Positions 277 through 42,968 of a stretch of 64,000 bases of DNA are shown one piece after another (positions within the stretch are counted from its first letter, which is position 1; each line of letters begins with the position of its first letter). Origin of the DNA: an uncultured virus (IMG/VR IMGVR_UViG_3300038415_000352) (taxonomy: Duplodnaviria; Heunggongvirae; Uroviricota; Caudoviricetes). The notes below the pieces were generated by a model, which was given only the letters and a program-made list of their open reading frames with translations, made no database searches and was not told the DNA's origin. A program made the position numbers and the translations under genes. The stretch is taken from IMG/VR virus record IMGVR_UViG_3300038415_000352. One strand, given 5' to 3'.

Positions 277-698
277 GAGACCCGACGAAGAGGCTCGGTC
301 ACCGGCTCCGCCTCGCCGCGAGGACCTACCGTGGCGGGGTCTCGATATTCGTTCTCGCGGTCGGAGCGCTCCTTACTATCCTCGCGGTCGGAGCGTTTAC
401 CCCGCTCGCGCTCCTTCCCCCGTTCCCCCTCGTAAACTCAGCGACGGATACCTCGGTCTGGAACTTTAGTCTCGTCTTCGTAATCGTCGGGCCTATCGTA
501 ACGATAGTCGGGGCCTATATGGTCGGGGCCTATTTTACCGCCCGACGGAAGTTCGAGCACCTCCTTCGGACGAAGAGCAAAGCCGAGTTCCTCCGGAGTA
601 TCCCCGACCTCGAGGACCTCCTTTGGGACCTAACGCCGCGCGACGAGGCCCGGTACGACGAGAAGTGCCGGGAGCTTCACGTCCAGAGGCCGGTATGA
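273..698 (+). CDS. DUF3198-like membrane protein
   Basis: Two TM helices followed by KFEHLL..SKAEFLR.I..LE.L.W.L, recalled as typical of Thermoplasmata DUF3198. Confidence 0.65.
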   Translation: MRDPTKRLGHRLRLAARTYRGGVSIFVLAVGALLTILAVGAFTPLALLPPFPLVNSATDTSVWNFSLVFVIVGPIVTIVGAYMVGAYFTARRKFEHLLRTKSKAEFLRSIPDLEDLLWDLTPRDEARYDEKCRELHVQRPV

Positions 699-8587: not shown

Positions 8588-9696
8588 CGCTCTTTCCGAA
8601 TCGATTCGTAAAGCGCGACGTGACGGTCGACCATCTTCTCGGCCGTCCAGTTCGTAACGGCCTTCCTACCGGTCCCCGGGGTATACCAGCTCGGGATATC
8701 GCCGAGCGCGCGGGCCATCTCCTCGGGGGTAGCGACGACCCGACCGGCCCCGGTCGCCGCTAGCTCCCGGGCGGCTCCGGAGTCGAACGCTACGAAGGGG
8801 AGGTCGGCGGCCATCGCCTCGAGGAGGGTAATCCCGAAGCCCTCGAAGGCGCTTCCCTGAACGTAGGCGTCGGCGGCGTGGAAGATATCGAGGAGCGCGC
8901 TCCGGCTTAGTTCGCGGAGGAATACCGCTCGGGTCCCGAGGGACCGGGTAAGGGCGAGGCAGTGCTCTCGGTCGTACGGGTGCCCCGGACGGTCGTTACC
9001 GATTTCGACGAGCCCCCACTCGCCGTTCGTTCGGGCGATAGCTTCGATAAGCCGGTCGACCCGCTTGTTATCCCAGAACCCGCCGACGTAGACGGCGACC
9101 TTCTTCGTTCGGAGGCCGAGCCATTCCCGCGTAATCTTCGTGTCGAGGTACGGCGGCGTATCGAACTCCTCGACCTCGATACCGTTCGGGATTACCGAGA
9201 GTCGTTCGGGAGGGTACCGCCAGCTAAGGACGTGGTTCGCCTCGCCGGCCGTTAGCGCGACGTACCGGTCGAACTTTCGGATACGCCGCGAGAAGTACTG
9301 GTTATAGTAGAGGTAGCGGACGGGGCCCGAGCGCATCCAGTAGTGGTAGAACCCATGGGGCGTAATGACCTGCGGCCAGTCGAACGAGCCCGCGAAGGGG
9401 AGGTAGTAGTCGACGTTCCAGATTCGGTTCCCGTGAACGTGGAAGACGTCGGCGTCGAGGGTCCGTAGCGTCCGGAGGTATCCCTTCGGGAGCCGGTACC
9501 CGGCGAGATGCCGCATCGGGATTCGGAGTACGCGGACGCCTCCGATAGATTCCTCGGTAGGGCACCCGGTCTTCTCCCGGGTTACGACCGTTACCTCGTT
9601 CCCCCGTTTCGCTACGCCCTCGGCGAGGAGCTGAACGACCCGTACGCTTCCCCCGACCGAGGGGAGGTAGTCGAGGACGGCGATAGCTACCTTCAC
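8584..9696 (-). CDS. glycosyltransferase family 4
   Basis: YLPSVGG, VIPNGI, EGFGITLLEAMAA; GTG start at 9696. Confidence 0.9.
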   Translation of the reverse strand: MKVAIAVLDYLPSVGGSVRVVQLLAEGVAKRGNEVTVVTREKTGCPTEESIGGVRVLRIPMRHLAGYRLPKGYLRTLRTLDADVFHVHGNRIWNVDYYLPFAGSFDWPQVITPHGFYHYWMRSGPVRYLYYNQYFSRRIRKFDRYVALTAGEANHVLSWRYPPERLSVIPNGIEVEEFDTPPYLDTKITREWLGLRTKKVAVYVGGFWDNKRVDRLIEAIARTNGEWGLVEIGNDRPGHPYDREHCLALTRSLGTRAVFLRELSRSALLDIFHAADAYVQGSAFEGFGITLLEAMAADLPFVAFDSGAARELAATGAGRVVATPEEMARALGDIPSWYTPGTGRKAVTNWTAEKMVDRHVALYESIRKER

Positions 9697-27877: not shown

Positions 27878-28686
27878 CGCCTCTTCCCGGTCACGTCTCT
27901 ACCGCCGTCGACCTCGTTACCTCGTACCTGACGGACCCGTCGTTACAGGAGCATCCGTTCCTCGCTCTCGGCGAATACGGCCTCGGCCGGGGGCATTACC
28001 TCGCCGATACGATTCGGCGGAACGGGTTCGTTCCGCGATGGCTCTACGAACCGGTCGCGCTTCCCGCTTCGGACCTCGACGGGAACGCTCTCTTTCCCGT
28101 CTACGACGTCCCGAAGGCGCAGATTCGTAACCTTCCCGCGCCCTCTATCGTTCTCGTCCCGTCGAGCTTCGACCGGAAGAGCGCTACCTACCGGGGCTGG
28201 CTATGGGCGCCGTTCGGCCGTCCCGAGTCGTGGAATATCACCGACGTTCTCGCCGCTCGGGGCCTTCCGGTCGAGGCGGCGGAAGGGAACCCGGCGTACG
28301 GACCGGCGATTCGCGCCGCGGAGGTCCTCCAGATGACCGGGGTCCTTCTTACTTCGGAGCCGCCGAAGTCGAGGACCTGGTCCGAGTTCCGTAACGGCGG
28401 CTCGCCGCCGGTCGAGGACGGGCTCCTCCCGTACTACCTCGCCTATACGTTCCCGACGACCGACTCGTCGTTCAACCGGGGTCTCTGGATTAGGTCACGG
28501 CTCGCTCGCGAGTCGTTCGGCGAGTGTATCCTCGACGCGATTCGGAATCGGATACCGACGACCGAGCTTCGCTTCCCGAGGGTCCTCTCGTACCAGAAGC
28601 CGAAGCCGCGAGAGGAACCCGAGACGAAGACCGACGTAGCCTCGGCCGCGGTCCTGACGAAGTCGTACGCTATCGATTGGGGGTAA
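27874..28686 (+). CDS. hypothetical protein, possibly a degenerate clamp-loader large subunit
   Basis: Degenerate P-loop GEYGLGRG; in replication operon; aromatic C-terminal tail SYAIDWG. Confidence 0.4.
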   Translation: MTPLPGHVSTAVDLVTSYLTDPSLQEHPFLALGEYGLGRGHYLADTIRRNGFVPRWLYEPVALPASDLDGNALFPVYDVPKAQIRNLPAPSIVLVPSSFDRKSATYRGWLWAPFGRPESWNITDVLAARGLPVEAAEGNPAYGPAIRAAEVLQMTGVLLTSEPPKSRTWSEFRNGGSPPVEDGLLPYYLAYTFPTTDSSFNRGLWIRSRLARESFGECILDAIRNRIPTTELRFPRVLSYQKPKPREEPETKTDVASAAVLTKSYAIDWG

Positions 28687-28688
28687 AG

Positions 28689-30578
28689 ATGGCGGTAGAA
28701 GAGTACGGAGCGGTTACGAAGGTCGAGGTCGACGGCGCGAGGAAGTTCCTTCATCTCCTTTCGAGCGCGCCGCTCGAGGTATCGCGCTACGCGCCGGTCG
28801 GCGAGGGGGACGAGCTATTCGGCGAGAACGGGACGGTCTATATCCGGGCGAGGAACGGTCGGGCGGCGCTCTTCCCGGCGTTCGATATCGCGGAGGACCT
28901 AAAGCCGGGTTGGCCGACGATTCGCTTTAAGGAGGTCGAGACCGAGGAGGAAGAGGCCGGGTACCGCAAGCTCGCGGCGTTCCACTACCGCGGCTCGGGG
29001 CTCTACGGTCGGCGGGTCCCGGTAATCGCGCGGGTCGACGACCCGTTCTGGCCGAAGGTCGTCGGGTATATCGAGCTGACGACCGATATGATGATGAACG
29101 CGCCGCGGAACCGTCTCGTCGGGTCCGGCTACGACGACCCGAACGGGTTCGGCTGGCCGGCGAACGACGACTCGGTCGAGAAGCTAAAGGACCGGGTGAA
29201 CCTCTTCGTACGGGTCGGCCGTATCGTCGTCGTCCCCGAGATTCGGGGTGCCGGGCTCGGCTACGCCCTCTACCGGTACGCCTGCCGGTACGCTAACGAG
29301 CGGTTCTACGTCGGCGGCTACGTCCCGTACTTCATTCTCGCTATCGCGGATTCGTTAAAGTACATCCCGACGGCGGAGAAGGCCGGGTTCGTCTTCGCCG
29401 GCTATACAACCGGGAACGCGGATACTATCGCCGAGGACATTCGGAAGTCGTTCGCCGATATCGACATGCTCCGCGCCCGGGACCAGCAGGGCGAGCTTAC
29501 GAACCGGGGGATAATCGCGCTCCAGCTCCGGTACGCGGAACGGATTAAGGAGGCCGCCGACCGGCTGAAGCTGACGCCCGAGGGTACCGCGGCGCTCCTA
29601 TCGAAGCCGGCCGAGGAACTCTCGGACGACGAGTACGCGATTCTCTACCCTATCCTGCGGTTCCCGAAGCCCGTCTACTTCAAAGGGCTGAACCCGCACG
29701 CCGAGGCGTATATCGAGCGGCGGGTAAAGGAACTCGGGCTAAAGGCCGAGGACTTCGACCCGAGGGTCCTCGTTACGCCTCTCTCGTCGCCGTTCGTTCT
29801 GAGCGGGACGTCCGTTACGGTCATCTCCTCGATACCCTCGTCGAAGCGGGTACGTTCCGTCGAGCAGGGCTTCGGTCTTCACCCGGAGAACCTCGCGGAT
29901 ACGGTCATCTCGGACCTCTCGCTCGAGATTCCGCCGAGGTCGACGCTCCTGATTACCGGGCCGTCCGGCTCGGGGAAGTCGCTTCTCCTTTCGCTCCTGA
30001 CCCGGTCGCTCGCGCCCTCGTCGAAGGTCGAGGTAACGGGGTCGGTAGATATCCCGGAGGACGCGGTCTTCGCCCGGCTCGTCCCGCTCGAACCCGACGT
30101 TCCTCTCGTCGACCAGCTCGTTCCCGAGGCGCCCGATATCCGCCCGGCGCTCTTCCTCCTGAATACCGCCGCTCTTTCCGAGGCGCACTCCTATCTCAAG
30201 CGGTTCCGGGACCTCTCGGCCGGGCAACAGTACCGGGCGATGATAGCGAAGATGGTCGGGAGCGGGGCGAACGTCTGGGTCGCCGACGAGTTCTGCTCGG
30301 CGATAGACCCGATTACGGCGCCGCTCGTCGCGGCGAATCTACGGAAGGTCGCGAGGCGCCTCGGGGCGACCGTTATCGTCGCGGCGCCGCACTCCTCGGC
30401 GTTCGTTCGTCAGCTCGCGCCGGATATCGTCGTCCAGTTCCTCCCCGGACGGGCGCATAAGGTAGTCTCCGGGGCGGAGTTCGTCTCGTATCTCGACGGG
30501 TATAAGCCGCCGACGAACGAGGAGCCGCCGCCGGAGTTCTCGGGTCTCTCGATAAAGTCGTTGGGGGAAGAATGGTAG
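28689..30578 (+). CDS. GNAT acetyltransferase / ABC ATPase fusion
   Basis: FHYR, RIVVVPEIRGAGLG (GNAT motif A); GPSGSGKS, LSAGQ, ADEF. Confidence 0.85.
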   Translation: MAVEEYGAVTKVEVDGARKFLHLLSSAPLEVSRYAPVGEGDELFGENGTVYIRARNGRAALFPAFDIAEDLKPGWPTIRFKEVETEEEEAGYRKLAAFHYRGSGLYGRRVPVIARVDDPFWPKVVGYIELTTDMMMNAPRNRLVGSGYDDPNGFGWPANDDSVEKLKDRVNLFVRVGRIVVVPEIRGAGLGYALYRYACRYANERFYVGGYVPYFILAIADSLKYIPTAEKAGFVFAGYTTGNADTIAEDIRKSFADIDMLRARDQQGELTNRGIIALQLRYAERIKEAADRLKLTPEGTAALLSKPAEELSDDEYAILYPILRFPKPVYFKGLNPHAEAYIERRVKELGLKAEDFDPRVLVTPLSSPFVLSGTSVTVISSIPSSKRVRSVEQGFGLHPENLADTVISDLSLEIPPRSTLLITGPSGSGKSLLLSLLTRSLAPSSKVEVTGSVDIPEDAVFARLVPLEPDVPLVDQLVPEAPDIRPALFLLNTAALSEAHSYLKRFRDLSAGQQYRAMIAKMVGSGANVWVADEFCSAIDPITAPLVAANLRKVARRLGATVIVAAPHSSAFVRQLAPDIVVQFLPGRAHKVVSGAEFVSYLDGYKPPTNEEPPPEFSGLSIKSLGEEW

Positions 30579-31189
30579 ACCGTGGGCCGAACCCTCTAAC
30601 GGCGGGGTTCTGGGAACGGGCCGAGCGGTATAACGCGACGTTCGGGAAGCTCTACCCGGGCTCGAAGTTCCATAACGACGATAACCGAATCGTCGCCGCG
30701 ACGTGGTTTACGGGGAACGACTACCGGAACCGCTCGCGGCTTTACGGCGCGTACCCGCCGCAGTTCCTCCCGCGGGTCCGGTCGCTCTTCGAGGACGTTC
30801 CCCCCGAGCGGGTCCTCCATCTCTTCGCGGGTTCGGTCGTTCCGCTACCGGGCGAGGTCACCCTCGATGCGAGCCCGGAGTTCCGGCCGACAGTTATCGG
30901 GGACGCCGAGGACGTCGCGGTTCTATTCGGGAAGAAGTTCTACCTAATCCTCGCCGACCCGCCGTACTCACCCGCCGACGCCGAGAAGTACGGAGCGAAG
31001 ATGCCGAACGTCCCGAAGGTCGTCTCCGCCTGCGCCGAGATACTCGAGCCCGGCGGCTACCTTGGCTGGCTCTCTACGACGTGGCCTATGTTCTCAAAGG
31101 AGCGGCTCTCGCTCGTCGGCCACGTCGCGATTATCCGCTCGACGATGCACCGGACCCGGAGCTGGTTCGTCTTCCGGAGGGTCGCTTAG
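30572..31189 (+). CDS. small N6-adenine methyltransferase-like protein
   Basis: YGAYP, VLHLFAG, ILADPPY. Confidence 0.8.
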   Translation: MVDRGPNPLTAGFWERAERYNATFGKLYPGSKFHNDDNRIVAATWFTGNDYRNRSRLYGAYPPQFLPRVRSLFEDVPPERVLHLFAGSVVPLPGEVTLDASPEFRPTVIGDAEDVAVLFGKKFYLILADPPYSPADAEKYGAKMPNVPKVVSACAEILEPGGYLGWLSTTWPMFSKERLSLVGHVAIIRSTMHRTRSWFVFRRVA

Positions 31190-32591: not shown

Positions 32592-32665
32592 ACCCCCGTA
32601 GAATAACTCGGCAAGTTCACCGGGCTCTGGCCCCGGTAGTAAGGGTTCGAATCCCTTCGGGGGAA
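32592..32665 (+). tRNA. tRNA-Gln(CTG)
   Basis: Cloverleaf; loop CT-CTG-GC; A1.A72 mismatch. Confidence 0.9.
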
Positions 32666-32670
32666 CCTCT

Positions 32671-32743
32671 ACTCCCGTGGAGTAACAGGAAAGCCCATCG
32701 GGCCTTGGACCCGAAGGTGAAGGTTCGAGTCCTTCCGGGAGTA
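32671..32743 (+). tRNA. tRNA-Gln(TTG)
   Basis: Loop CC-TTG-GA (C33); A1-U72. Confidence 0.9.
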
Positions 32744-32744
32744 T

Positions 32745-32816
32745 GGCCTCCGTAGTGTAGCGGTTGCATAGCGGACCGTGAATCCGCGGGGCCGGGTTCA
32801 ATCCCCGGCGGAGGCC
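32745..32816 (+). tRNA. tRNA-His(GTG)
   Basis: Loop CC-GTG-AA (C33); encoded G-1 and C73. Confidence 0.9.
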
Positions 32817-32827
32817 CTTTTCCTGAG

Positions 32828-32912
32828 CGGAGGGAGGGGGATTCGAACCCCCAACTCGCCGAAGCGAGACGGGCTTAGCATGCCCGCGCCGTACCGATTG
32901 GGCCATCCCTCC
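32828..32912 (-). tRNA. tRNA-Ser(GCT)
   Basis: Loop AT-GCT-AA; long variable arm; G73. Confidence 0.9.
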
Positions 32913-32922
32913 ATCGCGCGAG

Positions 32923-33005
32923 TGGTCGGGGCCGGACTCGCACCGGCGACGTTTCCTTCGTAGCGCCTCTTGGGGGCGCCGGCGTCGCTACTGACCCACC
33001 CGACC
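32923..33005 (-). tRNA. tRNA-Leu(CAA)
   Basis: Loop CC-CAA-GA (C33); long variable arm; irregular D arm. Confidence 0.75.
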
Positions 33006-33008
33006 GAA

Positions 33009-33084
33009 CGCACCCGAGGGGATTCGGACCCCTGTTCTTCCGCGTTCGAAGCGCGGCGCCATTTCCAAGCTAGGCGACGGGTGC
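33009..33084 (-). tRNA. tRNA-Arg(TCG)
   Basis: Loop CT-TCG-AA. Confidence 0.9.
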
Positions 33085-33096
33085 ACGGCGGTCGAG

Positions 33097-33171
33097 CGGG
33101 CTCGAGGGGATTCGAACCCCTAACCTCCACCTTCGCGGGGTGGCGCAATATCCGAGTTATGCGACGAGCCC
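33097..33171 (-). tRNA. tRNA-Arg(GCG)
   Basis: Loop CC-GCG-AA (C33); GCG anticodon is archaeal-type. Confidence 0.9.
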
Positions 33172-33178
33172 GGTCGAA

Positions 33179-33262
33179 TGGAGGGAGCAGGATTCGAACC
33201 TGCGATGTTTCCTCGTACGGGGTTCTAGGCCCCGCGCCGTCACCGGACTGAGCCACCCCTCC
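33179..33262 (-). tRNA. tRNA-Leu(TAG)
   Basis: Loop CC-TAG-AA (C33); long variable arm; A73. Confidence 0.9.
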
Positions 33263-33449
33263 GTAGGAGGGGGCCCGTCGCCTACGGAGATAACCGTAGA
33301 CGACGCAGGAGGAGCGGACCGCACCGCAATGGATTACTTCGCCGAGGGTCCTGCTTCATCTGACGGAGCTACGCGAGTTCTCGTACTTATAGATAGCGCG
33401 ACTCTGACTAATCGAACCTATGTACTAGGACGAGACGTCTAGATACCTA

Positions 33450-34007
33450 ATGTCGATTCGGTCTTCGGAGCGCCGGCGTCAATACCAGCGATTATGGAGA
33501 AGGATACACTACTCGAAGGACCGTAGGGTCGTCGAGGCGGCGATTACGGAACTACGTACGAACTTCGCCGAAGTACAGAGGCTGTCTCCTACGGAGGCGA
33601 AGCGCCGACGGGTTCTTCGGGCTAGGAACTGGAATAAGAGTCATCGAGAATGGGCTCGTAATTGGTGGCGGTCTCGGCGCCTTTCGATTCGTCTCAGGGT
33701 CCTCGAGCACTACGGAGGTCGACCTCCTAAGTGCGAGTGTTGCGGCGAGAGGCACCTCGCCTTCCTTACTATCGACCATATAAGGGGAGGCGGTTCGAGG
33801 GACCGGGACCGGAACGGTTACAAGTACTCGGGCTCGAGAGGATATGCTCGCCTGGTCCGAGAGGGATTCCCAAAAGGTTTCCGAGTTCTATGCTATAACT
33901 GTAACTGCGCGGAGCAGTTCGCGGGCGGGTGCCCCCATAGGAGTATGGGGCGACCCGGATTTGAACCGGAGTCTCGGCGTTCCAAGCGCCGGAGCCTACC
34001 AGACTAG
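33450..34007 (+). CDS. freestanding HNH (homing-type) endonuclease inside the tRNA array
   Basis: CECCGE...LTIDHI..GG, VLCYNCN...CPH; 3' end antisense to tRNA-Pro. Confidence 0.85.
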   Translation: MSIRSSERRRQYQRLWRRIHYSKDRRVVEAAITELRTNFAEVQRLSPTEAKRRRVLRARNWNKSHREWARNWWRSRRLSIRLRVLEHYGGRPPKCECCGERHLAFLTIDHIRGGGSRDRDRNGYKYSGSRGYARLVREGFPKGFRVLCYNCNCAEQFAGGCPHRSMGRPGFEPESRRSKRRSLPD

Positions 34008-34018
34008 CCTATCGCCCC
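33946..34018 (-). tRNA. tRNA-Pro(TGG)
   Basis: Loop CT-TGG-AA. Confidence 0.9.
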
Positions 34019-34031
34019 GGGATTACGGGGG

Positions 34032-34106
34032 TGGGCTCGGCCGGATTCGAACCGACGTCCCTCGGTCTGGAGCCGAGTGTCCTGAACCGGACTAGACGAC
34101 GAACCC
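34032..34106 (-). tRNA. tRNA-Trp(CCA)
   Basis: Loop CT-CCA-GA; C9 and U11-A24. Confidence 0.9.
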
Positions 34107-34121
34107 TTTGCGGATGCCGAA

Positions 34122-34207
34122 CGGTAGCGGCAGGATTCGAACCTGCAAGTTCCCGAGGGAACAGCGGTTTTCGGGACCGCCGAAATACCTGATTATCCGA
34201 CGCTACC
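34122..34207 (-). tRNA. tRNA-Ser(CGA)
   Basis: Loop CC-CGA-AA (C33); long variable arm; G73. Confidence 0.85.
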
Positions 34208-34380
34208 TCGCGGTCTAGTAGGGCTCTATCGCCAACGGAGCGATGAGCCGAGACTAGACCGCGAAAGCGGTGGGGGGAGAGGGCCGCGTCGATAGTTCCG
34301 TAGCTCCATTTCGGTCCTCTCCTTCGGCGTACCTTAGGTATCGAGTCGAGGGAAGCGCGGGTATATCTAACTACCGAGAG

Positions 34381-34453
34381 TGCGGACGCGGGGATTTGAA
34401 CCCCGACCTTCGCGTTGGAGGCGCGAGGTCCTGCCGGATTAGACGACGTCCGC
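34381..34453 (-). tRNA. tRNA-Gly(TCC)
   Basis: Loop CC-TCC-AA (C33). Confidence 0.9.
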
Positions 34454-34462
34454 ATAGTCGGA

Positions 34463-34534
34463 TGGCCCTTCCCGGAGTTGCGCCGGGATTTGGTCTTTGT
34501 AGGAGACCCGCCCTCGCTGTTAGACTAAAGGGCC
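34463..34534 (-). tRNA. tRNA-Val(TAC)
   Basis: Loop CC-TAC-AA (C33); atypical T loop CGCAACT. Confidence 0.8.
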
Positions 34535-34549
34535 GACCGAGCCCGCGAA

Positions 34550-34622
34550 TGGACGCGCGGGGATTCGAACCCCGATTTTCGGAGTTGCGGACTCCGCCGT
34601 TTTCCGATTAGCGTACGCGCCC
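34550..34622 (-). tRNA. tRNA-Ala(CGC)
   Basis: Loop TC-CGC-AA (C33); G3.U70. Confidence 0.85.
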
Positions 34623-34878
34623 GCTCCCGGGCGGACCGACCATTGGTCCTTCCTCCTCCCGAGGTACGAGCGCTGCCATCGAAAGGACGAGGATACTCGT
34701 CCTACTTAGAGGCTTCGAGAAGTTCGCAGGAACCCCCGGCCCAGCAGTACCGTTCCGGATTTCGCCGGACCGTCTGTCCCCGGGCCCGAGGTCCCGTTCA
34801 GGATAGGGAACGTTCGGGTAGATAAACTCTACGAGGAATTATGTAGAGGGAGCGCTCCTACTCGGCCGAAGAGGTGAA

Positions 34879-34951
34879 GGGTCCGTGGCGTCAATGGTAG
34901 CGCACCGGGCTCTTAACCCGCGAGGTGCGAGTTCGAATCTCGCCGGACCCA
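34879..34951 (+). tRNA. tRNA-Lys(CTT)
   Basis: Loop CT-CTT-AA. Confidence 0.9.
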
Positions 34952-34979
34952 CTCGCCCCGCTAAGGCTCGTATCCCGAT

Positions 34980-35050
34980 CCCGCCGTCGTTCAATGGTAG
35001 GACCGACGGCCGTAGACCGTCAGATGCCCGTTCAACTCGGGCCGGCGGGA
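34980..35050 (+). tRNA. tRNA-Tyr(GTA)
   Basis: Loop CC-GTA-GA (C33); C1-G72 and short variable loop (archaeal type). Confidence 0.9.
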
Positions 35051-35104
35051 CTACGCTAGGCTATCGCGAGCGAACGAGCCTCCGAGATTGAGCGCGGCCT
35101 CCGC

Positions 35105-35178
35105 GCTCCTCTAGTCTAACTCGGTAAGGATGCGGGGTCCTCGGCCCCGCGGTGCGCGTTCGAATCGCGCGAGGAGCA
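35105..35178 (+). tRNA. tRNA-Glu(CTC)
   Basis: Loop TC-CTC-GG (C33). Confidence 0.9.
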
Positions 35179-35184
35179 TTATAG

Positions 35185-35255
35185 GGTTCCGTGGTTCAGC
35201 GGTAGAATCCTCCGTTGTCGGCGGAGGGACCCGGGTTCAACTCCCGGCGGAACCG
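35185..35255 (+). tRNA. tRNA-Asp(GTC)
   Basis: Loop TT-GTC-GG; G73. Confidence 0.9.
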
Positions 35256-35294
35256 ATTTATTCTAGGAGACGTATCGCGCTGCGATGTCGCAGT

Positions 35295-35408
35295 CCACCC
35301 GTTCTTCGGAGTCGCCCGGCGTACGGCCGGTGGTACTCCCCCGCGGTCGGGGCAAGACCGCTACGCTAGCCGCGGACGGAGAGATGGTAGGCCCCGTCGA
35401 ACGGGTGG
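35295..35408 (+). ncRNA. putative structured non-coding RNA (multi-branch) within the tRNA operon
   Basis: 10-bp closing stem CCACCCGTTC/GAACGGGTGG enclosing three hairpins. Confidence 0.45.
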
Positions 35409-35443
35409 GCCCACGAACCGACCCGGGCCCGTTTAAACCGTAG

Positions 35444-35516
35444 GCTCTCGTAGTCTAGTCGGAAAGGATACCGCGCCTTCGACGCGGCGGTCCGAGTTCG
35501 AATCTCGGCGAGAGCA
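35444..35516 (+). tRNA. tRNA-Glu(TTC)
   Basis: Loop CC-TTC-GA (C33). Confidence 0.9.
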
Positions 35517-35525
35517 TTCATCCGC

Positions 35526-35598
35526 GGGTTCGTAGCTTAATCGGTAGAGCACCCGGCCTTTAACCGGCGAGACGAGGGTCCAAATCCCTCCGAGCCCA
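35526..35598 (+). tRNA. tRNA-Lys(TTT)
   Basis: Loop CC-TTT-AA (C33). Confidence 0.9.
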
Positions 35599-35601
35599 CT
35601 C

Positions 35602-35672
35602 GGGGGTCTCGTCTATTAGGAGGACTCCGTGCCGAAGACGCGGAAAAGCCGGTGCAAGTCCGGCGGCCCCCA
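35602..35672 (+). tRNA. tRNA-Phe(GAA)
   Basis: Loop CC-GAA-GA (C33). Confidence 0.85.
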
Positions 35673-35710
35673 CCTACCTAATTTATACTAGGCCGAGTAT
35701 AGCCGCTACG

Positions 35711-35935
35711 ATGCCCGCGACCGTCGAGCGAGTCTTCGAAGTAATCTTGAAGTCGAAGGAGGGCGTTACGGCTGACGAGGTAGCGAGCGCGCTCGGTATC
35801 GAACGGAAGGTAGCGACGTTCCTTATCCTCGACCTCGTTACCGCGAAGCGCGTCGAACGGGCAGGGTTCCGGGAAATCGTTCGGCCGACCGCGACGTCGA
35901 AGGGGCTCGCTGCGGCGTTCTTCCGCGCTTCGTAG
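35711..35935 (+). CDS. winged helix-turn-helix protein
   Basis: GVTADEVASALGI...LDLV..KRVER; leaderless after TTATACTAGG. Confidence 0.75.
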   Translation: MPATVERVFEVILKSKEGVTADEVASALGIERKVATFLILDLVTAKRVERAGFREIVRPTATSKGLAAAFFRAS

Positions 35936-35976
35936 TCGCGTTACGTTACTTATACTAGGGACGCTAATCCCGCCGT

Positions 35977-36159
35977 ATGCCCGCCGATAAGGTTACCGCG
36001 AACGCGAGCGGCGTCGAAATCCCCGACTATATCTGGAAGAGCATGTCGAAGGCCCAGCAGAAGAGCGTAACCGACGCCCTCGTAGTCGTCTACGACTCGA
36101 TGGCGAAGGTCTCGAAGATGATGGTCCGAATCGTTAAGGAGCAGGTCGACTCGTCGTAG
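35977..36159 (+). CDS. hypothetical protein
   Basis: ATG 17 nt after TTATACTAGG. Confidence 0.65.
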   Translation: MPADKVTANASGVEIPDYIWKSMSKAQQKSVTDALVVVYDSMAKVSKMMVRIVKEQVDSS

Positions 36160-36257
36160 GTTCTTTATCCTAGTCGGGCTCTCGGTAGTTCGGAACTACA
36201 CCGATGACGCCTCGAACGAATAGTCGGATACGGCGCGGCCCGCTGATTACGCAGGGC

Positions 36258-36332
36258 GGGCGCGTCGCATAGTAGCTACTGCGCCGGGCTTATAACCCGA
36301 AGTGGACGGGGGTGCAATTCCCTCCGCGCCCA
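36258..36332 (+). tRNA. tRNA-Ile(TAT)
   Basis: Loop CT-TAT-AA; A73. Confidence 0.85.
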
Positions 36333-36340
36333 TACATTCT

Positions 36341-36412
36341 GCAGGCGAGTCCCCACGGCGGGGAACCGAGCTGTTAACTCGGCCGTAGTACGTTCAACTC
36401 GTACCGCCTGCG
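36341..36412 (+). tRNA. tRNA-Asn(GTT)
   Basis: Loop CT-GTT-AA; G73; A8. Confidence 0.85.
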
Positions 36413-36419
36413 CTTCGTC

Positions 36420-36490
36420 GGGCGTATCTTCTATCGGAAGGAAACGAGGCTGATATCCCCGGAAGCGAGGTTCGACTCCTCGTACGCCCA
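36420..36490 (+). tRNA. tRNA-Ile(GAT)
   Basis: Loop CT-GAT-AT; one mismatch in the anticodon stem. Confidence 0.85.
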
Positions 36491-36504
36491 TCGGAGCGCT
36501 CGGA

Positions 36505-36575
36505 TGCGGTCGCCGGGAATCGAACCCGGTTCTCCTCGATGGCGACGAGGGGTCCTACCGGTAGACTACGACCGC
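36505..36575 (-). tRNA. tRNA-Gly(GCC)
   Basis: Loop TC-GCC-AT (C33). Confidence 0.9.
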
Positions 36576-36581
36576 GCGGAG

Positions 36582-36669
36582 CGCCCTCGGTGGGATTCGA
36601 ACCCACGTTGCGACCTTTCGGTCTACGGCTTAGAAGTCCGTTGCCTCGTCCGAGCTAGGCTACGAGGGC
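36582..36669 (-). tRNA. tRNA-Arg(TCT) with extended variable arm
   Basis: Loop CT-TCT-AA; variable hairpin GACC-GAAA-GGTC. Confidence 0.85.
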
Positions 36670-36728
36670 ATGCCGTCGGCCCGCCGACCGACCTTCCCTC
36701 TTCGCCTCTCGAGCGCGTTCATCTTCGA

Positions 36729-36799
36729 TAGCGGAGGAGAGAGTCGAACTCCCGTCTCGGGCTTATGAGGCCCGTAGGCTTCCGTTGTCCCACCCCGCT
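36729..36799 (-). tRNA. tRNA-Met(CAT), initiator-like acceptor stem
   Basis: AGCGGGG with A1-U72; loop CT-CAT-AA. Confidence 0.9.
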
Positions 36800-36851
36800 A
36801 GGCTCCGAGAGAGCGGAGGTCCTAAATAAATCCCCCGTTCTTGACTCGAGC

Positions 36852-36922
36852 GGGCCTCTAGGCTAATGGAAAACTCCGTCGTTGGCGTCGACGGGTTCGG
36901 GGTTCGAGTCCCCGGGGGTCCA
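36852..36922 (+). tRNA. tRNA-Ala(GGC)
   Basis: Loop TT-GGC-GT; G3.U70. Confidence 0.85.
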
Positions 36923-37037
36923 CTCCGAGAAGAGGGTCGCTAAACGGGGAGGCCGCTACACCCCCGCGCCTTCCGAGGCGGTAGCGCGTCTCGGTCGGCG
37001 CCTATCTCGTCGTCGTTTCGACGACCGTCCAGCACCC

Positions 37038-37253
37038 TTACGGGCTGGAACTCTTAGGTCGGTCCCCGTACATGTAATCTCCCTCGTGGTGCCCGAGCGC
37101 CCGGAGATGGCCGCGGAACGAGCGGCCTCGGGTATTCGAGTTCCTCGCGCGGGAGCGGAAGCCGCAGTCCGCGCAGACCCTCCCGGTTCGATGGATTCAG
37201 GGCTCGCGCTCTAGGAGCGGTACGACGGGATTCCCTACGCCCTTCGCGAGCAT
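37038..37253 (-). pseudogene. C2H2-like zinc-finger ORF interrupted by in-frame TGA (pseudogene or readthrough)
   Basis: MLAKGVGNPVVPLLEREP*IHRTGRVCADCGF...FRGHLRALGH; TATTTACA box about 25 nt upstream. Confidence 0.45.
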
Positions 37254-37284
37254 CGTTATCGACGAAGGCTCCTCTTGTAAATAG

Positions 37285-37355
37285 AGCCACCGACGGGAGT
37301 CGAACCCGCATCCCCGGCTTACCGTACCGGGATTCGTCCGCCGAACTGCGGTGGC
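37285..37355 (-). tRNA. tRNA-Thr(GGT)
   Basis: Loop AC-GGT-AA (C33); U73; C8/G14. Confidence 0.85.
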
Positions 37356-37362
37356 ATAGGAA

Positions 37363-37433
37363 AGCCCCGGAAGGGAGTTGAACCCTTCTGGACGGTTTTG
37401 CGGACCGTCGCGTATCCGACCTGCCCCCGGGGC
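37363..37433 (-). tRNA. tRNA-Cys(GCA)
   Basis: Loop CC-GCA-AA (C33); U73; G8. Confidence 0.85.
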
Positions 37434-37434
37434 A

Positions 37435-37505
37435 TGCCGCCGGAGAGATTCGAACTCCCACCGACGCTTTACGGAGGCGCCAGACTCCCGTTATCCTACG
37501 GCGGC
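37435..37505 (-). tRNA. tRNA-Thr(CGT)
   Basis: Loop TC-CGT-AA (C33). Confidence 0.85.
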
Positions 37506-37509
37506 GCAG

Positions 37510-37581
37510 AGCCGCTCTTCGGATTTGGACCGAAATCCCCGACTTACAGGGTCGGGATTCTAACCGTTGAACTAGAGCGGC
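37510..37581 (-). tRNA. tRNA-Thr(TGT)
   Basis: Loop CC-TGT-AA (C33); U73. Confidence 0.9.
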
Positions 37582-39788: not shown

Positions 39789-40187
39789 GTGCGTGGAGTA
39801 GATACCGGTCGTCTCGTCACCCTCTACGAAGGGGGTTCTCCGCCGTCGGACCTCGCTCTCCAGTTTAAGGTCTCGCAGGATACCGTTAAGCGGCTCCTCC
39901 GGAAGAACGGCGTATCGATTCGCCCGCAGGGCCGGCCGGTCGGCTGGCGGAAGCTCGACTCGAAGGAAATCGAGCGCCGGAAGCGAATCGCCCTTCGGTC
40001 GAATACGTGGGAGCGGTACCGGAAGAAGGCGGGTCTCCCGGCGAAGTACAACGCCCGTCTCGACCGGCGTTACGGGGTCCGTCTCGCCTGCTTCCTCTGT
40101 AAGACGAAGGTCTCGACCGAGACCGGCCGGATTAACGGGTACCGCCGACAGCTCTGCCGAAGGTGCTTCCGGAGGCTACCGAAGTGA
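39789..40187 (+). CDS. HTH plus zinc-ribbon protein
   Basis: LYEGG.....LA.QF.VS..TV.R.L...GV.IR; CFLC, CRRC. Confidence 0.7.
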   Translation: MRGVDTGRLVTLYEGGSPPSDLALQFKVSQDTVKRLLRKNGVSIRPQGRPVGWRKLDSKEIERRKRIALRSNTWERYRKKAGLPAKYNARLDRRYGVRLACFLCKTKVSTETGRINGYRRQLCRRCFRRLPK

Positions 40188-41092
40188 GCGCCGGCCGTTC
40201 CCTCCTCGGCGGGGAGAACGACCGTTGCGCGGCCTGCGGTTCTCCTCTTGCCTCGGCGAACGGGGAACGCTATTGCTCGTCCTGCGGAATCGTCGCGGAA
40301 GACCAGCCTATCGAGTCGGAGTACGCGAACCCGAGCGCCGTCCCGCTCTCGCTCGCCGCTACGCACGAAGCGGCTCCTATCCGGACGACGAAGACGAGCA
40401 AGATATCGCCGAGGGACTACGCGGGGAGGCGGGTCGAGAGCTACCGTTCGTTCCTGCGGCTCTTCGAAGAGGAGAAGCGCCAGCTTAGGACGAACCGGGC
40501 GTTCGCCTATATCCCGGTAATCTACCGGATTACGGGACTGATGGGCCTCCCGCGGTATATCGCGGTACGCGCGGTCGTCCTCGAGCGGGAGATGTTCCGG
40601 CGAAGACTCGCACGGGGGTACCCGGTCGACGCGAGCGCGGCCGTCGCGATTATGCTTGCCGCCCGGGAACAGGGAATCGTCTTCTCGTTCCACGACCTAG
40701 GCGATAGGGCCGACGAGAACTGGCGTCGAATCGCGAGCCTCTACCGAAAGGTACGGCGGGAACTCCTCGTCGATGCGAAGATACCGACCGCCGAGGACTA
40801 TATCCGAAAGGCGGCGTTCGAGCTAGAGGTCTCCGGCGTCCTCCGGGATGAGGCTATCGCGCTCGCGAAGGAGCTGACGGAGAACGCGCCTACGGGCGCC
40901 GGTCCCGTATCGGTAGCGGCGGCGATGGCGTGGAGGGTCTGGAGTCGTCCTCTCGCGCTTACGAAGAGCCGGCTCGCGAAGGTCTTCGGGATAACGGAGG
41001 TCTCGGTCCGTTCGGCGCTCCACGTCTACTTCCCTGACGAAATCGGGGAGGCGCCCTCGGTACGCGCGAGGCGACGGGCGAGCCGGGGATGA
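40184..41092 (+). CDS. tfb: transcription initiation factor IIB (TFB)-like protein
   Basis: N-terminal Zn ribbon CAACG...YCSSCGIV; two cyclin repeats; LAKVFGITEVSVR. Confidence 0.85.
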   Translation: MSAGRSLLGGENDRCAACGSPLASANGERYCSSCGIVAEDQPIESEYANPSAVPLSLAATHEAAPIRTTKTSKISPRDYAGRRVESYRSFLRLFEEEKRQLRTNRAFAYIPVIYRITGLMGLPRYIAVRAVVLEREMFRRRLARGYPVDASAAVAIMLAAREQGIVFSFHDLGDRADENWRRIASLYRKVRRELLVDAKIPTAEDYIRKAAFELEVSGVLRDEAIALAKELTENAPTGAGPVSVAAAMAWRVWSRPLALTKSRLAKVFGITEVSVRSALHVYFPDEIGEAPSVRARRRASRG

Positions 41093-41827: not shown

Positions 41828-41920
41828 CGGTAGACCGGAGGCCGGTAGACCGGCGTCTCTAATACGTAATAGAGGCGGCGGTAGACCGGCCGCCGCTCTC
41901 TTCCGGTCGGTCGGGCTAGC
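41828..41920 (+). repeat. about 93-bp direct repeat, copy 2
   Basis: Matches 11488-11581; abuts the recombinase stop codon. Confidence 0.9.
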
Positions 41921-42968
41921 CGTCGCCGGCCGGGCCGGTCGTATCCTTCGGCCGGAATAGGTTCTCGCTCGCTTTCCGAACGGCGTTCGCTACGTCGGCG
42001 TCGACGACCCGGGTATAGATTTGGGTCGTCGCGACCGAGGCGTGGCCGAGCGTCGTCTGGATAGCGCGGAGGTTCGCGCCTCCCCGCAGGAGCGAGGCGG
42101 CGTACGAGTGCCTTAGCTGATGTGGCGTAAGGGTCGCGGCGAGGTTCGATTCCCGTCCCTCGCGTTTCCGGGTAAGGTCGATGAGCTCGGCGACCTCCGT
42201 AAGGATTCGTTCGACCCGTCGAGCCTCGATAGGGAAGAGCGGGTCGAGGTACTTAATCTCGGGATGCTCGGCGAGGTAGGCGTCGATAGCTCCGAAGACG
42301 ACCTCGGGCCGGAGAAGGAACGCCCGCCGGTCCTTATCCTCCTTCCCGGATTTGACGAAGAGCGCCCCCTCGTCGCGGAGGAGGGACTCTCTCGTAAGGG
42401 AGATGACCTCGGAGAGTCGGAGCCCCCCGTACGCGAGTACCTTTAGGAGCGCCCCGTCCCGTACGCCCTTCCGGGTCAGCTCGGCGAACGTAACGAGGTC
42501 CTCGACGTCTTCGGACGAGAGGACTACCGGGTCGTGTTGCCCCGGAGCGAACCGGGGAATCTCCTTCGGGGGGACTACGATATCGAGCGCCCGGAAGAGT
42601 GCGAGGACTGCGGTCGAGTACGTCTTTAGGGAACCGTTCGGGTCGCGCTTCGCGTCGGGGTTCTTCTCATGGAATCGAGCCGAGTACGCGACGAGGAAGC
42701 CGACGAGTTCCTCGGACCCCGCCCGTTCGACCGGTACGCCGAGGCTTTCGCAGTAATCGATGAACCGACGGGCGACGCTCCGGTAGTTCCGCTTCGTCCG
42801 CTCTGACTTCCCGAGGAGCGACCGCTCGAGAATCGCGAGGGCGTCGGGCCTAGGCTCTGAGGGAGCGTTCCCGGAGGGTCTGGGGGTCGGGGACGGGGCT
42901 CCGGACGAGCCGGCATCGCTGGACAGAGGGGTATCAGATTGTTTAGAGGCCGATTCGGGCGCTCCCAT
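41916..42968 (-). CDS. XerC/D-type tyrosine recombinase (integrase)
   Basis: GLRLSE, GKEDKDR, TPHQLRHSYA, LGHAS..TTQIYT. Confidence 0.95.
   Translation of the reverse strand: MGAPESASKQSDTPLSSDAGSSGAPSPTPRPSGNAPSEPRPDALAILERSLLGKSERTKRNYRSVARRFIDYCESLGVPVERAGSEELVGFLVAYSARFHEKNPDAKRDPNGSLKTYSTAVLALFRALDIVVPPKEIPRFAPGQHDPVVLSSEDVEDLVTFAELTRKGVRDGALLKVLAYGGLRLSEVISLTRESLLRDEGALFVKSGKEDKDRRAFLLRPEVVFGAIDAYLAEHPEIKYLDPLFPIEARRVERILTEVAELIDLTRKREGRESNLAATLTPHQLRHSYAASLLRGGANLRAIQTTLGHASVATTQIYTRVVDADVANAVRKASENLFRPKDTTGPAGDG

What the first reader, a model, noticed from the sequence alone, without database searches (positions are those of the whole stretch)
32592..37581. 19 of 32 tRNAs replace the near-invariant U33 with C
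Seen: C33 in Gln(TTG), His, Leu(CAA), Arg(GCG), Leu(TAG), Ser(CGA), Gly(TCC), Val, Ala(CGC), Tyr, Glu(CTC), Glu(TTC), Lys(TTT), Phe, Gly(GCC), Cys and all three Thr. Their stems and identity elements (G3.U70, G-1/C73, U73, C1-G72) are intact, so this is not random decay. Known: U33 forms the anticodon U-turn and is almost universal, and anticodon-loop nucleases (PrrC, RloC, VapC, HEPN toxins) read this loop. Inference: convergent escape from a host or element-encoded tRNase, or genome-encoded C33 that is edited to U, by analogy to C8-to-U8 editing in Methanopyrus.
Basis: partly seen in the sequence, partly recalled or inferred. Interest (0 to 1): 0.85.

Follow-up and report, generated by a model that had tools for sequence, protein, structure and literature searches.

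The report
Archaeal mobile element's C33-rich tRNA set
A roughly 100-kb mobile element of an uncultured archaeon carries its own full set of 32 transfer RNA genes, and 19 of them have C where nearly all tRNAs have the U just before the anticodon; the pattern is real and confined to that one position, but why it exists is still unknown.

Summary
The genes are intact, archaeal in type and cover all 20 amino acids.

The shift is confined to position 33. C/(C+T) there is 0.59, against 0.05 in host tRNAs. All other unpaired positions give 0.45 against 0.42. The binned host genome has U33 in 30 of 31 tRNAs. Its one exception, tRNA-Glu(UUC), had C33 in 19 of 19 related genomes sampled, so this lineage already decodes with a C33 tRNA.

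Three published viral tRNA sets gave 0/35, 2/30 and 1/33 C33.

The element is about 97-100 kb and probably circular. No deaminase, THUMP protein or known tRNase was recognised in it.

The C33 share matches what a free pyrimidine would show at this element's base composition, 0.61-0.78. U33 is kept more often in ANN-decoding tRNAs.

My best reading is that the U-only rule at position 33 has been lifted and the tRNAs work as C33. Nuclease or enzyme escape is plausible but unshown. Editing is unlikely. No expression data or related array could be obtained.

The parts
32592..32665 (+). tRNA-Gln(CTG), U33 at 32626; A1/A72 mismatch
32671..32743 (+). tRNA-Gln(TTG), C33 at 32704
32746..32817 (+). tRNA-His(GTG), C33 at 32777; encoded G-1 at 32745, C73
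32827..32912 (-). tRNA-Ser(GCT), U33 at 32880
32922..33005 (-). tRNA-Leu(CAA), C33 at 32973; G55
   Evidence: below Rfam gathering
33008..33085 (-). tRNA-Arg(TCG), U33 at 33050; C55
33096..33171 (-). tRNA-Arg(GCG), C33 at 33137
33179..33262 (-). tRNA-Leu(TAG), C33 at 33228
33450..34007 (+). ORF (185 aa) inside the array, weak HNH-endonuclease likeness
   Evidence: phrog_2255, E 1.8e-6; no Pfam, PADLOC or NCBIfam match
33946..34018 (-). tRNA-Pro(TGG), U33 at 33985
34030..34106 (-). tRNA-Trp(CCA), U33 at 34071
34122..34207 (-). tRNA-Ser(CGA), C33 at 34174
34380..34453 (-). tRNA-Gly(TCC), C33 at 34420
34463..34534 (-). tRNA-Val(TAC), C33 at 34502; missed by ARAGORN; C54, G55
34550..34622 (-). tRNA-Ala(CGC), C33 at 34590; G3-U70
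34879..34952 (+). tRNA-Lys(CTT), U33 at 34911
34980..35051 (+). tRNA-Tyr(GTA), C33 at 35011; C1-G72
   Evidence: below Rfam gathering
35105..35178 (+). tRNA-Glu(CTC), C33 at 35139
   Evidence: below Rfam gathering
35185..35255 (+). tRNA-Asp(GTC), U33 at 35216
35444..35516 (+). tRNA-Glu(TTC), C33 at 35477; same loop CCTTCGA as the host tRNA-Glu(UUC); 77% identical to it
35526..35599 (+). tRNA-Lys(TTT), C33 at 35558; C55
35602..35674 (+). tRNA-Phe(GAA), C33 at 35633; G55
36258..36332 (+). tRNA-Ile(TAT), U33 at 36290; G55
36341..36413 (+). tRNA-Asn(GTT), U33 at 36372; A8
   Evidence: below Rfam gathering
36420..36490 (+). tRNA-Ile(GAT), U33 at 36451
36505..36575 (-). tRNA-Gly(GCC), C33 at 36544
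36581..36669 (-). tRNA-Arg(TCT), U33 at 36635; unusually long extra arm
36727..36800 (-). initiator-type tRNA-Met(CAT), U33 at 36768; A1-U72, GGG/CCC anticodon stem
36852..36923 (+). tRNA-Ala(GGC), U33 at 36883; G3-U70
   Evidence: below Rfam gathering
37284..37355 (-). tRNA-Thr(GGT), C33 at 37324; A32, C8
37363..37433 (-). tRNA-Cys(GCA), C33 at 37402; G8, U73
   Evidence: below Rfam gathering
37435..37505 (-). tRNA-Thr(CGT), C33 at 37474
37509..37581 (-). tRNA-Thr(TGT), C33 at 37549; C55
25241..27877 (+). family B DNA polymerase of the element; the marker used to look for relatives
40163..41092 (+). TFIIB-like transcription factor, an archaeal-type mark of the element
41916..42968 (-). tyrosine integrase

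Best explanation
The 32 genes are a working, archaeal-type tRNA set covering all 20 amino acids. They sit on an extrachromosomal element of about 97-100 kb, a virus or plasmid, of an uncultured archaeon.

On this element the rule that position 33 must be U has been lifted. The position behaves as a free pyrimidine, and C has accumulated to the share that the element's G+C-rich composition predicts. Every other conserved or unpaired tRNA position stays as in the host. The tRNAs are used as C33 tRNAs and are not edited.

This is possible because the host lineage's translation machinery already works with a C33 tRNA: its own tRNA-Glu(UUC) has C33 in every genome sampled. U33 is kept preferentially where another enzyme probably needs it, namely in ANN-decoding tRNAs that receive t6A37.

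Shown: the site-specific shift, the intact genes, the contrast with the host, the host's C33 tRNA-Glu, and the match to the compositional expectation.

Inferred: that the tRNAs are expressed and charged; that C33 costs little in this host; and that weaker selection on tRNAs that duplicate the host's set (possibly helped by a benefit of being invisible to enzymes that read U33) lets C33 persist.
For: Position-specific shift:
- C/(C+T) at position 33 is 0.59 in the element and 0.05 in host tRNAs (p = 3e-5).
- Pooled unpaired positions other than 33 give 0.45 against 0.42 (p = 0.48). Stems give 0.78 against 0.77.

Gene integrity:
- 31 of 32 acceptor stems and 32 of 32 T stems are fully paired.
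- G53, C56, A58 and C61 are present in 32 of 32.
- C33 and U33 genes score alike in Rfam: means of about 52.5 and 54.7 bits by my hand tally.

Fit to the neutral expectation:
- C/(C+T) is 0.783 at four-fold degenerate sites. G+C is 0.608 in the array's spacers.
- The observed 19/32 (0.59) fits 0.6 (p = 1). The 15/21 (0.71) in non-ANN decoders fits anything from 0.6 to 0.85.

Other points:
- Many independent changes: nearest-neighbour state agrees in 16 of 32, and five isoacceptor pairs are discordant.
- Host tolerance: the tRNA-Glu(UUC) loop is CCTTCGA in G001 and in 19 of 19 sampled genomes of the host order. The anticodon-stem sequence varies among them while staying paired in 18 of the 19. 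The same loop pattern is found in 7 of 10 sampled genomes of the host family.
- ANN decoders have C33 in 4 of 11, against 15 of 21 for the rest (p = 0.07). C33 blocks t6A37 synthesis by the E. coli and yeast enzymes (PMC8887486, passages read).
- Natural C33 elongator tRNAs are on record: Sulfolobales tRNA-Cys (PMC7668247, passage read).
Against: - Host tRNAs of similar G+C content keep U33 in 30 of 31. C33 is therefore not free of cost in this lineage, and the weaker-selection argument is an inference.
- Redundancy with host tRNAs does not by itself release U33 elsewhere. HGTV-1 has 0/35 C33, Bxz1 2/30 and Myrna 1/33, although their arrays have 49-62% G+C.
- A share of 0.59 is also what partial positive selection offset by constraints would give. 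Frequency alone cannot separate the two models.
- The ANN trend is weak (p = 0.07). All three Thr tRNAs and Lys-UUU break it.
- No expression, charging or modification data exist.
- No related array was available, so conservation or flipping of C33 over time could not be measured.
Confidence: 0.45

Rival explanations
1. C33 was selected because it removes a handle used by a factor that reads the anticodon loop of many tRNAs. That factor could be a broad anticodon-loop nuclease of the host's defences or of the element itself, or a host modification enzyme. Under this reading the element's tRNA set keeps translation going while host tRNAs are attacked.
For: - The same single-base change occurs in 19 unrelated tRNAs, at one position only.
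- In 12 host/element anticodon pairs, the loops are identical in 2 (Glu-UUC, Lys-CUU). In 5 they differ only by U33 to C33, and in 5 they differ by that change plus another loop position. This is my hand comparison.
- A full set for all 20 amino acids is what a takeover or rescue set would need.
- The excess over three published viral sets is large.
- Published precedents: phage tRNAs with loop substitutions predicted or shown to resist VapC, PrrC, PARIS and retron effectors (PMC10264068, passages read; PMC11464382 and PMC11555353, search listing only).
- A tRNase that cuts between positions 32 and 33 exists (PMC11724271, passages).
- U33C abolishes Cm32 formation by an archaeal TrmJ (PMC4105751, passage).
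Against: - No nuclease, HEPN, PrrC/RloC-like or other known tRNA-targeting protein was recognised among the element proteins scanned: 112 in Pfam, 58 in PHROGs, 87 in PADLOC and 56 in NCBIfam.
- The host bin gives one PIN match only.
- Thirteen tRNAs keep U33, six of them non-ANN decoders, and would stay exposed.
- The C33 share does not exceed the neutral expectation.
- At least one loop nuclease, the yeast gamma-toxin, cuts U33C substrates just as well (PMC2275089, passage).
Confidence: 0.3
2. The C33 is encoded but converted to U33 in the RNA by a cytidine deaminase, as C8 is in Methanopyrus kandleri.
For: A genomic C sits at a position that is otherwise U, in many tRNAs at once. The host tRNA-Glu(UUC) shares it, so a host enzyme could in principle serve both.
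Against: - No deaminase or THUMP domain was found in any scanned element protein.
- The host bin has a single cytidine-deaminase-fold ORF of 143 aa with no RNA-binding domain. The bin is only 86% complete.
- C33 in the host tRNA-Glu(UUC) is held in 19 of 19 genomes. If the RNA needed U, a gene with T would do the same job without an enzyme.
- There are no RNA data either way.
Confidence: 0.05
3. The array is decaying: the tRNAs are no longer used, and C33 is one sign of lost function.
For: Some other near-invariant positions have also changed. U8 is replaced in 3 of 32, U55 in 7 of 32 and U54 in 1 of 32, and there is one A1/A72 mismatch. Seven of 32 genes fall below Rfam's gathering score.
Against: - All stems are kept, although the tRNAs are only 44-77% identical to host orthologues.
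- G53, C56, A58 and C61 are invariant.
- Identity elements for Ala, His, Tyr, Cys and the initiator are intact.
- Position 33 is never a purine.
- The set is complete, and identical in five independent assemblies.
Confidence: 0.05

Closest known systems
Near-complete tRNA sets of large viruses: haloarchaeal virus HGTV-1 and cluster C mycobacteriophages Bxz1 and Myrna
   Same: A dense array of about 30-35 tRNA genes covering nearly all amino acids on a large mobile genome. No CCA end is encoded here (0 of 32).
   Different: Those sets keep U33. ARAGORN calls give 0/35 C33 in HGTV-1, 2/30 in Bxz1 and 1/33 in Myrna, against 19/32 here. No DNA or protein similarity to any record of the phage collection was found for the array. 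No capsid or terminase was recognised, so whether this element is a virus is open.
Nuclease-insensitive phage tRNAs (C1 mycobacteriophage tRNAs against VapC; T5 tRNAs against PrrC, PARIS and retron effectors)
   Same: Element-encoded tRNAs differ from the host's by substitutions inside the anticodon loop.
   Different: There the substitutions are specific to each tRNA and sit in the known cleavage site of a known nuclease. Here one and the same position changes across 19 tRNAs, and no nuclease is known. The host is an archaeon. The eLife paper's main text does not mention position 33 (zero hits for 'U33' and 'position 33'). Its supplementary tables were not read.
Natural C33 tRNAs: initiator tRNA-Met of multicellular eukaryotes; tRNA-Cys(GCA) of Sulfolobales
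   Same: C33 is encoded and used as such, which shows that decoding does not strictly need U33.
   Different: Those are single tRNA species per genome. Here C33 is in 59% of a whole set, and a further fixed case, tRNA-Glu(UUC), sits in the host lineage.
C8-to-U8 tRNA editing by CDAT8 in Methanopyrus kandleri
   Same: A genomic C at an invariant U position in many tRNAs of an archaeal system.
   Different: The defining enzyme, a cytidine deaminase fused to THUMP, was not found in the element or the host bin. The position differs, and no RNA evidence exists.

Membership tests
tRNA genes (Rfam RF00005) | Cloverleaf with a 7-bp acceptor stem and a 5-bp T stem | tested here: met
   Acceptor stem 7/7 paired in 31 of 32 and 6/7 in one. 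T stem 5/5 paired in 32 of 32.
tRNA genes (Rfam RF00005) | Score at or above the family's gathering threshold | tested here: met
   25 of 32 pass at 43-61 bits. Thr-GGT scores 37.4 bits in the identical G001 copy. The other six are called by ARAGORN only.
tRNA genes (Rfam RF00005) | Invariant T-loop residues G53, C56, A58 and C61 | tested here: met
   32 of 32 for each.
tRNA genes (Rfam RF00005) | U33 (the U-turn base) | tested here: not met
   13 of 32 have U and 19 of 32 have C. This departure is the finding itself.
Nuclease-insensitive viral tRNAs | Anticodon-loop substitution relative to the host tRNA with the same anticodon | tested here: met
   10 of 12 host/element pairs differ in the loop, and all 10 include U33 to C33 (hand comparison).
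Nuclease-insensitive viral tRNAs | A host or rival-element tRNase that cuts the host version | tested here: inconclusive
   None was recognised in the element. There is one PIN match in the 86%-complete host bin. Most element proteins match no family.
Nuclease-insensitive viral tRNAs | Demonstrated resistance of the viral tRNA to cleavage | not testable with these tools
   Needs cleavage assays.
C-to-U tRNA editing (CDAT8 type) | Cytidine deaminase domain joined to an RNA-binding THUMP domain | tested here: not met
   No PF00383 or THUMP match in the 112 element proteins scanned. The host has one 143-aa stand-alone deaminase-fold ORF.
C-to-U tRNA editing (CDAT8 type) | The RNA carries U where the gene carries C | not testable with these tools
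   No RNA run was listed for this stretch.
Naturally C33 tRNAs used as such | C33 encoded and conserved across related genomes | tested here: met
   Met for the host tRNA-Glu(UUC): 19 of 19 sampled genomes plus G001. For the element's own tRNAs there are only near-identical copies, so conservation could not be tested.

The most novel reading that the evidence does not exclude
The element carries an 'orthogonalised' tRNA set. A factor in this virus-host system, either a host defence nuclease or the element's own host-shutoff enzyme, recognises the universal U33 of the anticodon loop. By switching to C33 the element's tRNAs escape it, while the host lineage's ribosomes, which already use a C33 tRNA-Glu, read them normally.

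This would be the first tRNA-based counter-defence in archaea. It would also be the first case in which a universal tRNA base, rather than a tRNA-specific sequence, is the contested site.
Probability: 0.25. Interest if true: 0.85.

Novelty: new variant of a known kind. Interest (0 to 1): 0.62.

Why it matters
U33 is one of the most conserved bases in biology and is taught as required for the anticodon U-turn. Here a complete tRNA set has C33 in most members, and a host lineage carries a fixed C33 elongator tRNA. Together they give a natural system for asking three things: how much decoding really needs U33; which enzymes read it (t6A, Cm32, nucleases); and whether mobile elements exploit that.

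It also extends large virus-like tRNA sets with altered anticodon loops from bacteriophages to an archaeal element.

I found no paper describing C33-rich viral or plasmid tRNA sets in three full-text searches. Supplementary tables of the phage-tRNA papers were not read.

Tried and rejected
- **Relatives with arrays.**
  - megablast and blastn of the array against the phage collection gave no match.
  - The ABC-ATPase protein against viral contigs gave 7 distant loci, one with 4 tRNAs (3 with U33 and one ARAGORN call with G33) and no array.
  - The DNA polymerase against viral and genome contigs gave none.
  - The polymerase across 186 genomes of the host order gave one 50%-identical relative, on a 2,950-bp contig without tRNAs. 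That genome has no array.
  - The metagenome scan gave four contigs with a 100% identical polymerase and distant polymerases without arrays. ARAGORN was run on 60 of the 80 loci.
  - The four identical copies and G001:C123 show 0-2 differences across 5.2 kb, none in a tRNA. No comparative signal could be had.
- **Expression or editing.** No RNA holder was listed.
- **General GC drift.** Rejected.
- **Inheritance of C33 from one duplicated ancestor.** Rejected.
- **Strand bias.** C33 is in 7 of 14 plus-strand and 12 of 18 minus-strand genes (hand tally). No pattern.
- **Dependence on the anticodon.** Hand tallies show no rule for position 34 (U 7/11, G 7/12, C 5/9), position 35, or codon strength (strong 4/7, intermediate 11/16, weak 4/9). 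Only U36 shows a trend.
- **The ORF just upstream of the array (28524-30575).** I tested whether it is a tRNA enzyme.
  - The Atlas features suggest a GNAT-like N-terminal part (0.90, a lead only).
  - The fold model is mediocre (pLDDT 65). Foldseek saw only the ABC ATPase domain.
  - Bacterial homologues at about 30% identity have no tRNAs nearby.
  - I dropped it as unrelated to the finding.
- **A second host genome.** A 100%-complete genome of the same genus gave only 31 Rfam tRNA matches, no more than G001, so I did not fetch it.
- **Earlier notes of this scan.** None exist for this genome.

Full report
**1. The observation**

ARAGORN finds 31 tRNA genes between 32592 and 37581. Rfam's tRNA model adds one more at 34463-34534 on the minus strand. 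Its sequence reads as tRNA-Val(TAC) with the loop CCTACAA.

Reading the base before each anticodon gives C in 18 of the 31 ARAGORN genes. With Val that is 19 of 32. A second parse and a coordinate check agree. Position 33 is never a purine. Among the 25 genes above Rfam's gathering score, 14 have C33 (my tally).

The set covers all 20 amino acids. It carries archaeal identity marks: an initiator-type Met with A1-U72 and a GGG/CCC anticodon stem, Tyr with C1-G72, His with an encoded G-1 (base 32745) and C73, and both Ala with G3-U70. No gene encodes CCA (0 of 32).

**2. Is it more than drift or decay?**

The acceptor stem is fully paired in 31 of 32 genes; Gln-CUG has A1/A72. The T stem is fully paired in 32 of 32. 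G53, C56, A58 and C61 are present in 32 of 32.

Other near-invariant uridines are mostly kept. U8 is present in 29 of 32 and U54 in 31 of 32. U55 is present in 25 of 32, replaced by G four times and by C three times. There is some loosening elsewhere, but nothing like position 33, and it does not lean consistently towards C.

I compared the element's tRNAs with 22 host tRNAs parsed the same way:
- Position 33: C/(C+T) is 0.59 against 0.05 (p = 3e-5).
- All other unpaired positions pooled: 0.45 against 0.42 (p = 0.48).
- Stems: 0.78 against 0.77.
- Position 32 leans towards C, 0.80 against 0.55 (p = 0.07).

**3. The host**

The window's own assembly is not held. The nearest genome, G001, shares 97% of the window's sampled words. 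It is a 2.2-Mb, 130-contig bin, 86% complete. The array lies there on a 9.7-kb contig, C123.

Rfam finds 32 further tRNA matches on other contigs. Two are the same sequence, which leaves 31 distinct tRNAs. ARAGORN called 24 of them. I read the other seven from the sequence; they carry introns, some of them in the T loop.

Thirty have U33. One, tRNA-Glu(UUC) on a 102-kb contig, has the loop CCTTCGA. The second refuter, "host tRNAs similarly C33-rich", also fails: 19/32 against 1/31 gives p = 1.2e-6.

The exception is informative. A blastn of the array against 186 genomes of the host order found the array only in G001. It also showed that the element's tRNA-Glu(UUC) is the one tRNA that cross-matches host genomes.

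I fetched the host tRNA-Glu(UUC) from 19 of those genomes. I chose them among the best matches and the most contiguous assemblies, so they are not a random sample. All 19 have CCTTCGA, while the anticodon-stem sequence varies among them; it stays fully paired in 18 of the 19.

A pattern search for this loop with its D-arm context hit 7 of 10 sampled genomes of the host family. In the phylum sample it hit 41 of 401, and the hits outside the family are near the chance level: the reversed-pattern control gave about a dozen. This lineage has therefore long decoded with a C33 elongator tRNA.

**4. The element**

The window holds these genes:
- a glycosyltransferase cluster
- an SNF2 helicase
- RecT
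- an RFC-like ATPase
- a DNA methylase
- a family B polymerase
- an ABC-type ATPase
- a TFIIB-like protein
- a tyrosine integrase
- PKD-domain proteins

Most other ORFs match nothing.

Four metagenome contigs carry a 100% identical polymerase and the same array. Three of them are 97.7-101.9 kb long, and the shared segment sits at different offsets in them. On one, the window would overrun the contig end. I infer a circular or circularly permuted genome of about 97-100 kb.

In G001 the element is split over about ten contigs. I read the roughly 33 kb outside the window from C76 and C78. It encodes a 2,474-aa protein, fn3 and PKD proteins and a TatC homologue.

No capsid or terminase was recognised, so "virus or plasmid" stays open. 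Three things tie the element to this host: its glycosyltransferase genes are 68-73% identical at the DNA level to G001 chromosomal contigs; its G+C content is similar; and its tRNA identity marks are archaeal.

**5. The proposed mechanisms**

*Editing.* No deaminase or THUMP domain was found among 112 element proteins in Pfam or 56 in NCBIfam. The host bin has one 143-aa stand-alone cytidine-deaminase-fold ORF.

*Nuclease escape.* PADLOC on 87 element proteins gave only helicase, methylase and ATPase hits. The host bin gave one PIN match.

Published work cuts both ways. Phage tRNAs with loop substitutions are proposed or shown to resist host tRNases (PMC10264068, passages read). A tRNase that cuts between positions 32 and 33 exists (PMC11724271). 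But the yeast gamma-toxin cuts U33C substrates just as well (PMC2275089).

C33 also blocks modification enzymes. It abolishes Cm32 formation by an archaeal TrmJ (PMC4105751) and t6A37 formation by the E. coli and yeast systems (PMC8887486).

**6. How the C33 state is distributed**

The element's tRNAs are old and divergent. They are at most 73% identical to one another and 44-77% identical to host tRNAs with the same anticodon. The closest relative within the array shares the position-33 state in 16 of 32 cases. The Gln, Arg, Lys, Ala and Ser isoacceptor pairs are discordant. There have therefore been many independent changes.

I found no dependence on strand, on position 34 or 35, or on codon strength (hand tallies). 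The only trend is that ANN decoders, which have U36 and are the t6A37 substrates, carry C33 in 4 of 11, against 15 of 21 for the rest (p = 0.07). This fits the published anti-determinant role of C33, but the three Thr tRNAs and Lys-UUU break it.

**7. The quantitative test**

If position 33 were simply a free pyrimidine, its C share should approach the element's neutral composition. That composition is C/(C+T) = 0.783 at four-fold degenerate sites and G+C = 0.608 in the array's non-coding spacers.

The observed values are 0.59 overall, 0.71 in non-ANN decoders and 0.36 in ANN decoders. The overall share fits 0.6 (p = 1) and is below 0.8 (p = 0.007). The non-ANN share fits the whole range. No selection for C is therefore needed to explain the number. 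What needs explaining is why the U-only constraint is gone here.

**8. Controls**

- The archaeal virus HGTV-1 (array region 49% G+C) has C33 in 0 of 35 ARAGORN calls: 32 have U, and 3 doubtful calls have A.
- Mycobacteriophage Bxz1 has 2 of 30 (array 62% G+C).
- Myrna has 1 of 33 (60% G+C).

Being viral, redundant with host tRNAs and G+C-rich does not by itself release U33. This element is exceptional.

Earlier unchecked notes of this scan report C33 in 7-12 tRNAs of several uncultured high-GC phage arrays, and sporadic flipping of C33 in archaeal tRNAs. They are leads only. My three published controls do not show the "common in phage tRNAs generally" claim. The "codon strength" rule from one note does not hold here.

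**9. Verdict**

I put the readings in this order:
- **About 0.45.** Position 33 has become a tolerated free pyrimidine on this element, in a host lineage that demonstrably decodes with C33. U33 is retained where another enzyme needs it, and the tRNAs work as C33.
- **About 0.3.** The change is positively selected because it hides the tRNAs from a nuclease or enzyme that reads U33.
- **About 0.05 each.** Editing, and decay.
- **The rest** is left for explanations I have not thought of.

The two leading readings can be separated by tRNA sequencing and by related arrays. I could obtain neither: no RNA run was listed, and every copy found is near-identical.

They were only among the 186 genomes searched.

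Noticed in passing
L018 (G001:C117:50016-50090) and L039-L057: The host lineage's own tRNA-Glu(UUC) has the loop CCTTCGA (C32-C33) in G001 and in 19 of 19 sampled genomes of the order (two genera). The anticodon-stem sequence varies among them; it stays fully paired in 18 of the 19. The host tRNA-Glu(CUC) keeps U33. This looks like a fixed natural C33 elongator tRNA.
   Followed up: partly
window 36258-36332: The element encodes tRNA-Ile(UAU). Its only CAU tRNA is initiator-like (36727-36800). It therefore has no elongator Met and no CAU-type Ile2 tRNA that would need agmatidine.
   Followed up: no
window 36581-36669: tRNA-Arg(UCU) is 89 nt long, with an extra-arm hairpin (GACC GAAA GGTC) in the variable region. 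Long extra arms are normally limited to Leu and Ser (and bacterial Tyr).
   Followed up: no
window: Leu-CAA 32922-33005, Val 34463-34534, Phe 35602-35674, Ile-TAT 36258-36332 (G55); Arg-TCG 33008-33085, Lys-TTT 35526-35599, Thr-TGT 37509-37581 (C55): Seven tRNAs lack U55, the pseudouridine-55 site. Three lack U8: Asn has A8, Thr-GGT has C8 and Cys has G8. Host tRNAs have U at both positions in 22 of 22.
   Followed up: partly
window 28524-30575 (probable start about 28689): A two-part protein lies just upstream of the array: an N-terminal part with GNAT-like features (a lead only) and a C-terminal ABC ATPase. It is followed by a methyltransferase-like ORF (30572-31186). Only 5 homologues turned up among 5.8 billion proteins. 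Relatives at about 30% identity sit in chromosomes of diverse bacterial MAGs, with no tRNAs nearby. Weak PADLOC hits to MADS components (mad3, mad2).
   Followed up: partly
window 33450-34007: A 185-aa ORF with weak HNH-endonuclease likeness sits inside the tRNA array. It may be a homing-type insertion.
   Followed up: no
whole window; L058-L061; L138-L140: The element is about 97-100 kb. It was assembled as near-identical contigs with different end points in several metagenomes, so it is probably circular. It encodes PolB, an RFC-like ATPase, RecT, an SNF2 helicase, a TFIIB-like protein, an integrase, TatC, a 2,474-aa protein and many fn3/PKD proteins. No capsid or terminase was recognised, so its nature (virus or plasmid) is open.
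   Followed up: partly
window 293-684, 4232-5230, 7437-9642: Glycosyltransferase and neighbouring genes are 68-73% identical at the DNA level to chromosomal contigs of G001 (C4, C56, C19). This suggests gene exchange between host and element.
   Followed up: no
L025, L027, L028, L008 (G001 host contigs): Several host tRNA genes carry introns at non-canonical sites, including the T loop. ARAGORN and Rfam therefore miss or truncate them. A 100%-complete genome of the genus yields only 31 Rfam tRNA matches.
   Followed up: no
window 36071-36072: The only differences within the array region among the five assemblies are two adjacent bases (CC in the window, TT in L060). They lie in the small ORF 35977-36159, not in a tRNA.
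   Followed up: no
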